A program made the position numbers. Source: a virus (lineage: Duplodnaviria > Heunggongvirae > Uroviricota > Caudoviricetes). Taken from it: 42,406 nt of DNA. Within the stretch, counting starts at the first letter, position 1; every line of letters starts with the position of its first letter. Location of the stretch: IMG/VR virus record IMGVR_UViG_2534682160_000015, positions 1 through 42,406 of that record; one strand, written 5' to 3'. Below are positions 6,001 through 9,000 of the stretch, in pieces.

Positions 6001-9000
6001 GAAAGGCACGTAAGAGGTGTTCACTGCTTCTAAAATTGCTATACTATTCATGTTGGTTTTTCTCCAAGGATTTACCGACAACCGAAGCCCTGACTGTTAC
6101 CGCAGTTGGGGCTTCAACTTTTCACTTCTTTAAAGTGCCTACCTTCTACAGTTGCTCTGAGATAAAAATTCTTATCTTTACCGTTTAGTGCTTCCCAAGC
6201 ATCAACAATGCACTTATTACAGATGTGGACTTCTCGATAACCAATAGCTTTCCTGTCAATATTAGTGAACATAACAGCTTCTTTATCTGTCAATGTGGAT
6301 GCATGACAGAAGTCGCAATCTATATAAGATACCTTCATACCGTTATCCCCTCTCTCTTCAGGCTGTCCATCACTCGCTTGTAAATCTCAGAGTTAACAGA
6401 TCGCCCGTTCTCTTCCGCCACCTTACGCACCAAATCAAATACTTCTTTAGGCCACCGCAAATTGAACTGCGGCATTTTGCTCATTCCTTTCATATTCACC
6501 TCACAATATAGGTCCACCGTGGACCTATTGAGAATATAGTAGAGTGCTTCTATCATGTCAATACACTAACTTGGGGTGATGGCATGGCTAGAGACGATCC
6601 GCACTTTAACTTCCGTATGCCTTTGGAAGTAAGAGAAAAATTGAAATTAAGAGCAGAGGCTAACGGAAGGTCAATGAACTCTGAGTTATTACAAATCGTT
6701 CAGGATGCTCTCTCAAAGCCATCATCAATTGTAGGCTATCGAGACGAAGCTGAGCGAGTCGCGGATGAGCAATCTGACGTTGTTAAGAAGATGGTCTTTG
6801 AAACGCTGAAAAATATTTATAGCAAAAGTAAGTTATAGGCTTATGACGTACAGTTAACCATATCGATATTGGCTCGCGTGATGACAAATGAAAAAAAGCA
6901 ATGGACTCACATTAAAACTTGACGGAACCACCCCTGGCCAGCTGTCAATGGCTAAGTTGGTCAAGTATATGTCTGCTCTCGTAGATCTATACGGTTCTGC
7001 AGATTCTGTTCACTTCGACTGTGTAAGTGAAGGATCGGCTGACTTAAATGCATGGGTCGATAATGATATTTGTTATAACGCTGTCATAGCAAGGGCCTCT
7101 CTCTCAGCCAAAGAGAAATCACCTGCGTATCAAAAAATTGTTAATTTACTGGAACATGATGGTTTTTCAGCGAAACTACTCGGACGAAACCACTCAACCA
7201 TTATCGCATTCCCGCGAGTAAAAAAGGAACCAATCCCTTTACTCATAACAAAAACGTCAGAAGTTCAAGGAAGGCTATACAGTGTTGGCGGAAAAGACAA
7301 CTCAATACCTGTGCGTATTGAGGGAGCCAACGGTGAAACATTCAAGTGCGAGGCAACCCCTGATTTGGCGGCAGCTCTTGGGTCCCATCTATTCAAATAT
7401 ATTAGGGTTAAAGGAGATGGGTGCTGGGAAAAAAAGAACAACAAATGGGAGCTAAAGAAACTAAAAATAACTTCATTTGTATTGCTCAAAAAATCATCAC
7501 TCAAGGATGCTATTAATGCTATCAAGCAAGTTCCTGGAGATCAGTGGTCCGAGGAACGCGATGTTGATTCAATCCTTAGGACTCTGAGGAAGATAAATTG
7601 CGAGTAATTTTAGATACCAATATTCTGGTATACCTACTATCAGATATAGAACACGATTATAGATTATCTGACCCTATACTTGGTTCTGAGATTCCAGATG
7701 CCAAAAGAAGAGCAGAAGCTCTTGTTGATCGAATAGATAACAAGAACGGGACAATCATCGTTCCAACTCCTGTATTGGCGGAGTTTTTAGTTGGAATCCA
7801 TAAAGATTACCAACAAGAAAAACTGAATGTTATCAAATCGTTATCGTGCTTCGAAACTGTATCATTTGATGAGTTGGCTGCTATTGAATGCGCATCGATA
7901 CCAACATTAAAAGAATTAAGGAAAATTAGCACAGAAGGTACAGCAAACAAAATTAAGTTTGACAGACAAATAATAGCAATTGCAAGAGCAATTAATGCTG
8001 ACGAGGTATGGACTCATGATAAGGGAGTGTTTGAGCGTTGCAAAAGTCTCAATATTCCTGTGTTCACATTATCATCAATAGAACCAATTCCGGTTCAAAG
8101 TCTCATGGAGTTCTTACACGATTCAGACGATCAGAGATTACACTAAAATATAATTTTTATGCATCCGTGATAATTACATCCGTCACGGATACATAAAGCT
8201 ATAGCCAAAAGTGGACAAACCTTTATCTCACTCCAAACCATCTGGTATCCTGCTCAAAACTAAGGAGGTTGGTGTGTTTGGTATATTAACGAGAAGCAAG
8301 ATAAAAAAATTAAGGGCAAAACTCGCCGAAACACAAAAACTGGCTTCACATTTTTACAAAATGAAATACGACGCTGAAGAGCGTGCATTCGTTGAGTTAT
8401 GCGATTTATCTATTCGTATGGGAGTAGAGCCAGATGTAGCGGCAAAAACTCAACAAGGCATTGATATACTTGCAGATGTTGTTTTAAACAGGCAATATGC
8501 GTTTTATCTAAACGAGAAGGCCATTCAGATTTACTCTCAAATCTTCCTCCTAGAAAAAAGAAGAGGAACTCACGATCGAGAAGAGTGGTTAAATGAAGTT
8601 GTTAAAAAATCTGGCTGGGAAGTTGTTTCATCAGAGCTACCTCTTATTTGTGCTGATTTAATCGAAGAGGCAAAAGAGCGTCTATCCGATGGCTAAACGA
8701 ATCCATCCGTGGATTACTAATTACTCCAGCTCCATTCCGCTTAGCGATGCCACAATCCCAGCCCTCGCTAAGCGCTGAAACTCTTCGTTTCCGACGGTAT
8801 CACGTATCGCTTTTACAGCAGCTTTATTTGCCATAAATCTGCGTTCCGCCGCCGCTAATGCACCATCACTTGCCCCAACATTAACTGCCTTTGTTGCCTC
8901 TTGGACAGCCTTTTCAATCGCGTAACGACTACTGCGGGATGCAGCTAACTTTTCTATCGTCCCTTTAGCTATAGATCCAGAAACAGCCCCCACAACACCG

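What the first reader, a model, noticed from the sequence alone, without database searches (positions are those of the whole stretch)
8161..8716. ATCCGT-containing palindromes bracket the third cassette gene
Upstream of gene 8274-8696 there is CATCCGTGA followed by the perfect 13-bp palindrome ATCCGTCACGGAT (~8162-8192), overlapping a GATAAT -10-like hexamer. Immediately after the gene's stop there is ATCCATCCGTGGAT (~8702-8716), between the convergent cassette and gene 16. The same half-site on both sides suggests a regulator operator (autoregulation or phage-responsive control) or a recombination/cassette boundary.
Basis: seen in the sequence. Interest (0 to 1): 0.45.

Follow-up and report, generated by a model that had tools for sequence, protein, structure and literature searches.

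The report
Unrelated hairpins at prophage cassette joints
The two look-alike palindromes around this small prophage gene show no sign of being one regulator's binding sites: one is a private hairpin at the end of a neighbouring two-gene module, the other is a short hairpin motif that ends the swappable "sieA-slot" gene in many P22-like prophages, so this is mostly an ordinary feature of a known hypervariable region.

Summary
The sequences exist as described, but they are two different things. The window is a P22-like E. coli prophage, and the region is its known "ant moron": mnt, a 239-aa OB-fold protein, a PIN nuclease, a third gene, then convergent gene 16.

Upstream site: the 13-bp palindrome is part of a larger 15-bp-arm inverted repeat (8156-8197). 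It forms a hairpin of -16.7 kcal/mol (z -6). It is found only with the E. coli version of the OB-fold/PIN module: 33 of 5,426 genomes, all copies identical. It precedes four different third genes. Diverged copies of the module lack it.

Downstream site (8700-8715): this is the local copy of a motif, CC[A/T/G]TCCNTGG. The motif directly follows the stop codon in 11 of 14 unrelated gene families that use the P22 sieA leader, including P22 sieA. Here it lies in the retained last 21 nt of a displaced hkcB gene. Homology between related prophages switches at this motif on the right and at the GTG start codon on the left, not at the upstream palindrome.

The hexamer ATCCGT occurs at background frequency. 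No dsDNA-binding fold was found in the 239-aa protein, the only cassette protein modelled.

Verdict: shared operator not supported; cassette boundary supported for the downstream site. Low-to-moderate interest.

The parts
6584..6838 (+). mnt (Arc/Mnt-family repressor). Its operators Omnt and Oarc lie at about 6510-6556.
   Evidence: Pfam Arc + Repressor_Mnt. Operator sequences read. 86% DNA identity to P22 mnt.
6888..7607 (+). 239-aa partner protein of the PIN gene, with a C-terminal OB fold. No family assignment.
7598..8146 (+). PIN-domain (VapC-like) nuclease gene. It overlaps the 239-aa gene by 10 nt.
   Evidence: PF01850, E = 4e-10. RefSeq annotation 'PIN domain-containing protein'.
8156..8197 (.). 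Inverted repeat/hairpin: arms 8156-8170 and 8183-8197, spacer 8171-8182.
   Evidence: I3: 15 nt, 93%. (-16.7 kcal/mol, z -6.0). 33 of 5,426 E. coli genomes, one copy each, all 100% identical.
8147..8213 (.). Junction segment private to the E. coli OB-fold/PIN module. It is essentially the hairpin plus short flanks.
   Evidence: BLAST classes: the full 127 nt is found only in the 33 module-bearing genomes. Other prophages match only from 8214 (82-84%) or from 8239.
8212..8241 (+). Inferred PsieA-equivalent promoter: -35 TGGACA 8212-8217, 18-nt spacer, -10 AACCAT 8236-8241. It is a weak match.
   Evidence: Position inferred from the PsieA annotated just upstream of the same leader in P22. Read from the sequence. 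Not reported by the consensus scan.
8246..8276 (+). Conserved sieA-type leader, GGTATCCTGCTCAAAACTAAGGAGGTTGGTGTG, including the Shine-Dalgarno sequence and the GTG start. It is the left joint of the exchangeable gene.
   Evidence: Identical leader in front of P22 sieA and in front of at least 14 unrelated protein families in 127 loci. Homology to L002 and L003 ends at the GTG.
8274..8696 (+). Third gene: a 140-aa orphan occupying the sieA slot.
   Evidence: RefSeq CDS. No Pfam, PHROG, PADLOC, NCBIfam or PDB match. The only full-length homologues are at least 94% identical (one 98-aa fragment 86%); the only named one is from E. coli. The gene is also found behind other modules that lack the hairpin.
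8700..8720 (+). Remnant of the last 21 nt of hkcB: AATCCATCCGTGGATTACTAA here, AATCCATCCATGGATGACTAA in hkcB.
   Evidence: Comparison with KE40, epsilon34 and CUS-3.
8700..8715 (.). Slot-end hairpin AATCCA-tccg-TGGATT. The core motif CCATCCGTGG is at 8703-8712. It is the right joint of the exchangeable gene.
   Evidence: 71 of 73 occurrences of the motif in 1.26 Mb of related loci lie at the end of the slot gene, and none lie on the other strand. It follows 11 of 14 slot gene families. Homology switches there. It is the only exact copy in the window.
8721..10844 (-). Gene 16 (DNA ejection protein), convergent with the cassette.
   Evidence: ORF. RefSeq 'P22-gp16 family phage DNA ejection protein'.

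Best explanation
The two 'ATCCGT palindromes' are separate junction elements in the hypervariable 'ant moron' of a P22-like prophage.

(1) Upstream, 8156-8197. This is a 42-nt hairpin-forming inverted repeat. It is nearly the whole of the 67-nt segment joining the stop codon of the mnt / OB-fold protein / PIN nuclease gene row to the sieA-type promoter and leader of the next gene. It sits where P22 has the terminator t_mnt, and where the Pantoea and Leclercia versions of the same two-gene module have terminator-like hairpins. I infer that it acts, if at all, as an RNA stem-loop that ends or insulates the upstream transcript (3'-end protection or partial termination). I do not think it is a protein operator.

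(2) Downstream, 8700-8715. This is the local copy of a short hairpin motif, (G/T)CCA-TCCN-TGG(C/A). The motif directly follows the stop codon of most genes occupying the sieA slot. In this window it lies within the retained tail of hkcB, the gene that the 140-aa orphan displaced. The slot gene is exchanged as an exact ORF between two joints: the conserved leader (through the GTG start) and this motif.

Shown: the anatomy, the distributions and the breakpoints. Inferred: the RNA-level role of the upstream hairpin, and whether the downstream motif is kept for a function (weak 3' hairpin) or only as a crossover microhomology.
For: Region identity. The arc-mnt operators, sar RNA, mnt, ant, gene 16 and gene 20 are all present. 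The literature calls this region the 'ant moron' (PMC2629481).

Upstream hairpin.
- Anatomy and stability.
- One identical copy in each of 33 of 5,426 E. coli genomes, always just after the PIN stop.
- The same hairpin precedes four different slot genes: 140 aa, hkcB 109 aa, 75 aa and a 62-aa family.
- The 140-aa gene also occurs behind other modules without the hairpin.
- The module versions with 58-75% PIN identity in Salmonella, Pantoea and Leclercia lack it and lack any ATCCGT site nearby. The Pantoea and Leclercia versions carry a stem plus T-run there.
- P22 has t_mnt in the equivalent place.

Downstream motif.
- The window copy aligns to the last 21 nt of hkcB and onward into gene 16.
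- CCATCCNTGG occurs 73 times on the slot strand in 1.26 Mb of related loci. 71 of these are at the slot gene's end, and none are on the other strand. About 5 per strand are expected by chance.
- The motif starts 0-6 nt after the stop codon in 11 of 14 unrelated slot families, including P22 sieA. In hkcB it lies inside the last 18 nt.
- Eight columns are invariant. Stem pair 8-19 shows GC 15, UA 4, AU 1, GU 1.
- All 22 variants fold to the same small hairpin, -1.0 to -9.0 kcal/mol.
- The same slot gene joined to different right-hand contexts diverges just after the motif: position 14 for the 149-aa family, about position 22 for the 140-aa family.

Left joint. Homology with prophages carrying other slot genes runs through the GTG at 8274-8276 and then stops.
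Against: - The upstream hairpin has no U-tract on the plus strand, a 10-12-nt loop and an A/U-rich stem base. The window's canonical terminators (I21, I23, I24) look different. So it is not a standard intrinsic terminator, and its RNA role is unproven.
- All known copies are identical, so conservation cannot be used to argue for function.
- The two sites align over 27 nt better than 99% of controls, so they may not be fully independent.
- The downstream hairpin is weak. Its covariation rests on about two independent compensatory changes among related sequences.
- The 129-aa slot family, which lacks the motif, also switches context exactly at its stop codon. The motif is therefore not required for ORF-precise exchange.
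Confidence: 0.55

Rival explanations
1. Duplicated joint, or scar. The upstream left arm plus spacer (ATGCATCCGTGATAATTACATCC) is a diverged copy of the right-end joint (ATCCATCCGTGGATTACTAATTACTCC: the hkcB tail plus the back-to-back stops TAA/TTA). It would have been left behind when the promoter-leader-gene unit was inserted next to the PIN gene. The right arm would have arisen by inverted duplication (template switching). Under this reading neither copy has a present function beyond providing microhomology.
For: A gapped 27-nt alignment shares CATCCGTG, TAATTAC and TCC in the same order. Score 24, reached by 5 of 2,000 shuffles and by 0.8% of other 56-nt windows of the phage. Tandem slots with duplicated leaders do exist (L069). 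The hairpin is private to one lineage and absent from diverged modules.
Against: The similarity is short, gapped and was found post hoc. No intermediate form (PIN gene followed directly by the hkcB tail and gene 16) was found among the loci examined. Sequence beyond TAATTAC shows no homology to the gene 16 end. Similarity to the YafO-class upstream region is weak (70 of 2,000 shuffles).
Confidence: 0.2
2. The upstream repeat alone is a DNA operator array: three ATCCGTSA half-sites, two direct copies 15 bp apart and one inverted. An unidentified prophage or host regulator would use it to control the sieA-slot promoter, unrelated to the downstream site.
For: Three half-sites lie at -50 to -90 from the inferred slot transcription start. 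Other cargo modules at this locus carry clear operator-like repeat arrays in the same relative position, for example four ATGCTTGCAT/ATGCAAGCAT copies in P63C-module loci.
Against: No candidate binder is encoded in the module: the 239-aa protein models as an OB fold with no HTH/RHH match, the second is a PIN nuclease, and the orphan gene varies behind the same repeat. Mnt and Arc have their own, different operators at 6510-6556. There are no other copies in the prophage. The site is absent from diverged modules. The site lies upstream of the core promoter and does not overlap it.
Confidence: 0.1
3. The upstream hairpin works in another RNA context. Either it is a minus-strand terminator/insulator that stops non-antiterminated antisense transcription from entering the PIN, OB-fold and mnt genes. 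Or it is the 5'-terminal stabilising stem-loop of a transcript started at the promoter-like site TTCAGA-16-TAAAAT (8122-8149).
For: On the minus strand the stem is followed, 2 nt later, by UUAUAUUU (6 U in 8), and it folds at -23.1 kcal/mol, z -3.9. The promoter-like site ends 7 nt before the stem.
Against: The stem base is A/U-rich and the loop is 12 nt, unlike the window's canonical terminators. The promoter match is 9 of 12, and the region has only about 1.5 times as many such matches as shuffles. There are no expression data.
Confidence: 0.08
4. One reading: the same regulator binds ATCCGT half-sites on both sides of the third gene. This could be autoregulation, looping or phage-responsive control.
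For: The 8-mer CATCCGTG is present at both sites and nowhere else in the window. Both sites are palindromic.
Against: - The half-site spacing and architecture differ (N1 against N4).
- The hexamer is at background frequency, and the 8-mer coincidence is within chance.
- The upstream site stays while the downstream motif is absent (75-aa gene) or reads CATCCATG (hkcB).
- The downstream motif occurs in many prophages that lack the upstream site.
- No DNA-binding cassette protein was found.
Confidence: 0.05

Closest known systems
The 'ant moron' / immI-sieA region of P22-like phages (Villafane et al. 2008, PMC2629481; P22 sieA with putative PsieA, Leavitt et al. 2024, PMC10883804)
   Same: Same genomic position, between gene 16 and the tailspike gene. 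Same arc-mnt-ant-sar core. The same leader as P22 sieA stands in front of the third gene. The same pattern of different cargo genes in different phages is seen.
   Different: The cargo here (OB-fold protein + PIN nuclease + 140-aa orphan) is not among the versions described in those papers as far as I read them. Neither hairpin element appears in the passages I read.
Mosaic joints at gene boundaries and short conserved 'boundary sequences' in lambdoid phages (bsq features annotated in CUS-3; concept recalled from Clark et al. 2001 on HK620, not read here)
   Same: Homology between relatives switches exactly at the start codon and at or just after the stop codon. A short conserved sequence sits at the right joint, flanked on both sides by unrelated or divergent DNA.
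   Different: The right-hand element is only 10-16 nt long. It is strand-specific and tied to the stop codon. It forms a small hairpin with some compensatory variation, which suggests more than passive homology.
Intrinsic terminators / operon-end stem-loops, such as P22 t_mnt (AAGCCGG-gtcact-CCGGCTTTTTG)
   Same: Position: directly after the last gene of the repressor-linked gene row and before the sieA-slot promoter. The stem is stable. Other versions of the module have terminator-like hairpins at this spot.
   Different: There is no U-tract on the coding strand, the loop is long, and the stem base is A/U-rich. The downstream hairpin has only 3 G-C pairs and no consistent U-run.
Palindromic repressor operators of the same region (P22 Omnt and Oarc)
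   Same: Short palindromes in the immI region. The Omnt core in this window, TCCACCGTGGA (6510-6530), differs from the downstream hairpin TCCATCCGTGGA by one inserted T.
   Different: Neither site matches the full operator. Most family members read GCCA...TGGC, not TCCA...TGGA. The one-base change in spacing would misalign the half-sites. Binding was not tested.
Integron gene cassettes with attC hairpin sites
   Same: ORF-sized exchangeable units, each ending in a hairpin-forming site, placed behind a shared expression signal.
   Different: No integrase is linked to the slot. The hairpin is 16 nt, not 57-141 nt, and has no R/L core sites. Usually there is one slot, not an array (two in L069).

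Membership tests
Shared transcription-factor operator | The same complete site (both half-sites, same spacing) at both positions | tested here: not met
   Upstream: ATCCGT-N1-ACGGAT inside a 15-bp-arm repeat with a 12-nt spacer. Downstream: ATCCA-N4-TGGAT. Only the 8-mer CATCCGTG is shared.
Shared transcription-factor operator | Motif enriched over background, or repeated at other regulated promoters of the element | tested here: not met
   ATCCGT occurs 18 times against 16.6 expected. The palindrome is unique. The 8-mer pair is within chance.
Shared transcription-factor operator | A cognate dsDNA-binding protein is encoded with the site, and the two are conserved together | tested here: not met
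   The 239-aa protein models as an OB fold with no HTH/RHH match and the second is a PIN nuclease; the 140-aa orphan has no family match and was not modelled. Diverged modules lack the site. The site persists while the third gene changes.
Shared transcription-factor operator | Overlap with a core promoter | tested here: inconclusive
   GATAAT (8169-8174) has no -35. The PsieA-equivalent lies at 8212-8241, downstream of the repeat. A 9-of-12 promoter-like site ends at 8149.
Rho-independent terminator | G+C-rich stem, 3-8-nt loop, U-tract immediately 3' of the stem | tested here: not met
   Upstream: stable stem, but a 10-12-nt loop and no U-tract on the plus strand. On the minus strand a U-rich run starts 2 nt after an A/U-rich stem base. 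Downstream: a 6-bp stem with 3 G-C pairs, tail ACUAAUUA.
Mosaic joint / cassette boundary of lambdoid phages | Homology breakpoints in related genomes coincide with the element | tested here: met
   Downstream motif: contexts diverge right after it, and the window copy starts the hkcB/gene 16 homology at 8700. Upstream: the repeat lies inside a private segment bounded by breakpoints at 8146/8147 and about 8213/8214. However, the third gene's own left breakpoint is the GTG at 8276/8277.
Mosaic joint / cassette boundary of lambdoid phages | The element is conserved while both flanks are unrelated | tested here: met
   Eight invariant columns lie between 11 unrelated gene ends and several right-hand contexts. 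71 of 73 occurrences are at this position.
Integron attC-type recombination site | Linked tyrosine integrase (IntI) and an attC-like imperfect palindrome with conserved core sites | tested here: not met
   No integrase is among the genes between mnt and gene 16 in any locus examined. The hairpin is only 16 nt.
Dispersed palindromic repeats (REP/BIME-like, MITE ends) | Many copies per genome in unrelated intergenic sites | tested here: not met
   The 51-nt query finds exactly one place in each of 33 genomes, always in this context, even at an E-value limit of 10.
Known structured RNA family | A match to an Rfam covariance model | tested here: not met
   Only sar RNA (6052-6119) matches in 5800-9200 at E up to 10, apart from two weak chance hits elsewhere.

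The most novel reading that the evidence does not exclude
The conserved sieA leader (promoter, Shine-Dalgarno, GTG) and the stop-codon-linked hairpin CCA-TCCN-TGG together define a dedicated, recombinase-free 'gene slot' in P22-like prophages. Unrelated small genes, mostly membrane proteins of the superinfection-exclusion type, would be swapped into it ORF-precisely. The hairpin would be a selected functional element, either a preferred crossover site for the phage's single-strand-annealing recombinase or an RNA 3'-end/antisense-control signal next to gene 16. It would not be a passive relic.
Probability: 0.2. Interest if true: 0.55.

Novelty: new member of a known kind. Interest (0 to 1): 0.25.

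Why it matters
For the finding as written, little. It removes a false lead (a shared operator) and places the locus in the well-known hypervariable ant moron / sieA region of P22-like phages.

Two by-products may be useful.
- The sieA slot has a recognisable signature: a fixed leader and a stop-linked hairpin. The signature could be used to harvest lysogen-expressed exclusion or defence candidates from prophages, and to study how phages exchange single genes so precisely.
- An OB-fold protein + PIN nuclease pair sits directly behind prophage repressor genes in at least two prophage contexts (P22-like, Rac-like) in E. coli, Salmonella and Leclercia, with a third, untyped context in Pantoea; PADLOC does not contain it. 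This is the usual address of a lysogen-expressed defence or toxin-antitoxin module.

Tried and rejected
- Wrong pattern. I wrote 7 N between the two upstream copies where there are 6. The zero hits in genome contigs and viral contigs are therefore meaningless. The real element is present in IMG/VR loci L053, L080, L089, L174, L186 and L197.
- Gapped scan ATCCGTGA-N6-20-TCACGGAT in viral contigs. My own estimate of order 100-200 chance matches rests on an assumed size for the collection, which I did not measure. The scan was uninformative except that three true copies were among the hits.
- First genome-contig scan with the leader. No match, because the collection holds only one genome per species.
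- Looking for diverged copies of the upstream hairpin to test stem conservation. This is not possible. PIN homologues jump from 99% to 75% identity with nothing in between, and the 58-75% versions fetched lack the element.
- Homology of the upstream segment to the YafO-class upstream region. MAFFT and local alignment give only weak similarity: 70 of 2,000 shuffles.
- Post-stop motif after other cargo genes. CATCC[AGT]TG is not found after non-slot genes in 369 kb of cargo regions, apart from this window's element.
- Pairing of the slot-end motif with the leader's ribosome-binding region (5'-3' interaction). The duplex energies are inconsistent: better than shuffles in 3 of 6 families, not in the window or in hkcB.
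- Rfam, PADLOC, NCBIfam and PDB sequence searches for the elements or proteins. They returned nothing beyond PIN and sar.
- Two resemblances recalled from memory: HipB operators (TATCC-N8-GGATA) and CsrA hairpins (GGA in the loop, minus strand). The spacing does not fit HipB, and neither was tested.
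Full report
**What the region is.**
The window is a P22-like (Lederbergvirus-type) prophage of E. coli. Around the finding lie:
- ant (5149-6081, minus strand);
- a small ORF, then arc (6335-6493, minus strand);
- the arc/mnt operators (about 6510-6556);
- mnt (6584-6838, plus strand);
- a 239-aa gene (6888-7607) that overlaps a PIN-domain gene (7598-8146);
- the 'third gene' (8274-8696, GTG start);
- convergent gene 16 (8721-10844, minus strand) and gene 20.

Rfam finds sar RNA at 6052-6119 and nothing else in 5800-9200. This is the stretch that Villafane et al. called the 'ant moron': variable cargo between gene 16 and the tailspike gene (PMC2629481). RefSeq annotates the same genes in 99.2%-identical prophages of ST131-type strains.

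**Checking the observation.**
All the strings are present:
- CATCCGTGA at 8162-8170;
- ATCCGTCACGGAT at 8178-8190;
- GATAAT at 8169-8174;
- ATCCATCCGTGGAT at 8701-8714.

It is a 15-nt-arm inverted repeat (8156-8170 / 8183-8197, 93% complementary, 12-nt spacer). It ranks third among the 25 local inverted repeats in the whole window. It folds at -16.7 kcal/mol, z = -6.0. The 13-bp palindrome is its right arm plus a third half-copy in the spacer. The downstream feature is a 6-bp stem with a 4-nt loop (8700-8715). On its own it is no more stable than shuffles.

On chance:
- The hexamer ATCCGT is at background (18 against 16.6 expected).
- The shared 8-mer is within chance.
- A gapped 27-nt alignment of the two sites is uncommon: 5 of 2,000 shuffles.
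- GATAAT has no -35 partner.

**The third gene sits in the P22 sieA slot.**
The 33 nt before and including its GTG (GGTATCCTGCTCAAAACTAAGGAGGTTGGTGTG, 8246-8276) are the leader of P22 sieA. In P22 the putative PsieA promoter is annotated immediately upstream of that leader (PMC10883804). Together with the annotated loci, at least 14 unrelated protein families start at that same GTG. They include SieA (164 aa), HkcB (107-109 aa), and families of 62, 68, 75, 99, 103, 106, 116, 129, 140 and 149 aa. The pattern included the GTG, so joints further upstream would have been missed. In E. coli genomes that share the upstream DNA with the window, identity runs through the GTG and then stops. The slot gene is hkcB in KE40 and a 75-aa gene in AST215. 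The 140-aa protein of the window is an orphan: its full-length homologues are all at least 94% identical, and the only named one is from E. coli.

**The downstream site is the slot-end motif.**
In the window the sequence from 8700 onward (AATCCATCCGTGGATTACTAA|TTACTCC...) aligns to the last 21 nt of hkcB (AATCCATCCATGGATGACTAA) and on into gene 16. So the orphan gene replaced hkcB and left its tail.

The core CC[A/T/G]TCCNTGG is also found right after the stop codon of unrelated slot genes: TAG|CCATCCATGGC, TAA|CCATCCATGGC, TGA|CCATCCTTGGTCA. For P22 sieA it reads TAAAT|GCCGTCCTTGGC.
- 11 of 14 slot families have the motif.
- In 1.26 Mb of related loci, 71 of its 73 plus-strand occurrences lie at the slot gene's end. 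None lie on the other strand. About 5 per strand are expected by chance.
- Eight columns are invariant.
- The flanking stem positions vary with some compensation. Pair 8-19 shows GC 15, UA 4, AU 1, GU 1. The covariation score exceeds all 500 shuffles. However, the sequences are related, and the +3 slid control scores as high.
- All variants fold to the same small hairpin, -1.0 to -9.0 kcal/mol.

When one slot gene is found with two different right-hand contexts, identity ends just after the motif. This holds for the 149-aa, 140-aa and 109-aa families. The 129-aa family lacks the motif and switches at its stop codon. The motif is therefore a frequent joint, but not a necessary one.

**The upstream site belongs to the neighbouring module.**
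BLAST of 8147-8273 against 5,426 complete E. coli genomes gives three classes:
- full-length matches in 33 genomes;
- matches from 8214 onward (82-84% identity) in YafO-module prophages;
- matches from 8239 onward in many others.

The segment 8147-8213 is thus private, and it consists almost entirely of the hairpin. A 51-nt query finds one copy in each of the same 33 genomes, all 100% identical, and nothing else even at an E-value limit of 10. The same hairpin precedes four different slot genes. The 140-aa gene occurs behind other modules without the hairpin. So the hairpin is not tied to the third gene.

It is also not an obligatory part of the two-gene module. Module versions with 58-75% PIN identity occur in several places:
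- in a Salmonella P22-like prophage;
- in Pantoea;
- behind a cI-like repressor in Rac-like prophages of Leclercia.

None of these has the hairpin or any ATCCGT site nearby. The Pantoea and Leclercia versions have a terminator-like hairpin (stem plus T-run) directly after the PIN stop. P22 has t_mnt at the equivalent position.

**Is there a regulator for an operator?**
- The second protein is a PIN nuclease.
- The third gene is variable.
- Mnt and Arc have their own operators about 1.6 kb away.

No candidate binder for a dsDNA palindrome is evident in the cassette.

**Best reading and its limits.**
The two sites are different junction elements.

I take the upstream hairpin to be an operon-end RNA stem-loop or insulator between the mnt / OB-fold / PIN gene row and the slot promoter. 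The inferred promoter is TGGACA-18-AACCAT, 8212-8241. The argument rests on position and stability. It is weakened by the lack of a U-tract, the long loop and the A/U-rich stem base. The window's real terminators look canonical (I21, I23, I24).

Alternatives that I cannot exclude:
- a scar containing a diverged duplicate of the right-end joint;
- an operator for an unknown factor;
- a minus-strand terminator, since UUAUAUUU starts 2 nt after the stem;
- a 5' stem-loop of a transcript from the promoter-like site at 8122-8149.

The downstream motif is clearly the right boundary of the exchangeable gene. Whether it is maintained for a function (a weak 3' hairpin, or control of read-through into gene 16 antisense) or only as microhomology remains open. 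In BTP1, a P22-like prophage, an RNA antisense to the 3' end of the injection gene acts as an exclusion factor (PMC7067206). That makes read-through from the slot worth testing.

**Comparison with what is known, and novelty.**
The locus, its variability and the sieA promoter and leader are known. Mosaic joints at gene boundaries and short 'boundary sequences' are a known theme in lambdoid phages: bsq features are annotated in CUS-3, and the concept is recalled from the HK620 paper, which I did not read here.

I found no description of the stop-linked CCATCCNTGG hairpin or of the 42-nt repeat in the passages I read from the papers I opened. That is a limited search. I file the finding as a new member of a known kind, namely junction elements of a phage moron hotspot. 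The operator interpretation is not supported, and the boundary interpretation is supported for the downstream site.

Noticed in passing
window 6888-8146; L247, L249, L252-L255: A 238-242-aa OB-fold protein plus a 182-aa PIN nuclease form a conserved overlapping gene pair. The pair sits directly downstream of a prophage repressor gene in different phage types: mnt in P22-like prophages of E. coli and Salmonella, and a cI-like HTH gene in Rac-like prophages of Leclercia. Homologues of the 239-aa protein reach Pseudomonas. There is no PADLOC hit. It is a candidate lysogen-expressed toxin-antitoxin or defence module.
   Followed up: partly
L069 2340-2372 and 4105-4137: One prophage carries the sieA leader twice. 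Each copy is followed by a different slot gene (129 aa, then 149 aa), with other cargo between them. The slot can therefore be duplicated in tandem.
   Followed up: partly
L026, L046, L057, L109 (just after the slot-end hairpin): In some loci the hairpin is followed by GGAGxTTAAxATG and a tiny 21-22-aa hydrophobic ORF (MVTVGWII...) before gene 16.
   Followed up: no
window 6510-6530 compared with 8701-8714: The Mnt operator core in this window, TCCACCGTGGA, equals the downstream hairpin TCCATCCGTGGA minus one T. Most other copies of the slot-end motif read GCCA...TGGC, so a Mnt link is doubtful. It was not tested.
   Followed up: no
window 8700-8715, minus strand; all slot-end motifs: On the late-transcript strand the hairpin reads CCA-NGGA-UGG, with an invariant GGA in the loop just after the gene 16 stop. 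From memory this resembles CsrA-type binding hairpins. It was not tested.
   Followed up: no
L008 2380-2480; L069 3975-4075: Prophages with a P63C-domain cargo gene carry four copies of ATGCTTGCAT/ATGCAAGCAT in the divergent promoter region upstream of the slot leader. This is a much more convincing operator array than the one in the window.
   Followed up: no
window 6860-6869: A perfect 10-bp palindrome, ATATCGATAT, lies in the 49-nt gap between mnt and the 239-aa gene. It is not conserved in the Salmonella, Pantoea or Leclercia versions of the module.
   Followed up: partly
window 31567-31630: Three copies of a 17-nt unit (TTGACTGATTCGGTAAA, TTTACCGATTTGGTGAA, TTTACCGAATTGGTAAA) lie in inverted and direct orientation within 64 nt. 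They look like an operator or iteron cluster elsewhere in the prophage.
   Followed up: no
window 6114-6338 (minus strand): A 74-aa ORF between arc and ant has a weak ClpX-type C4 zinc-finger match (E = 0.0015, below the Pfam cut-off). P22 itself has no gene there.
   Followed up: no
L249 3587-3601: In Pantoea, the gap between the PIN gene and the convergent gene contains AGACCACTTGGTCAG. This resembles the slot-end variant TGACCATCCTTGGTCA with a 2-nt shorter centre.
   Followed up: no
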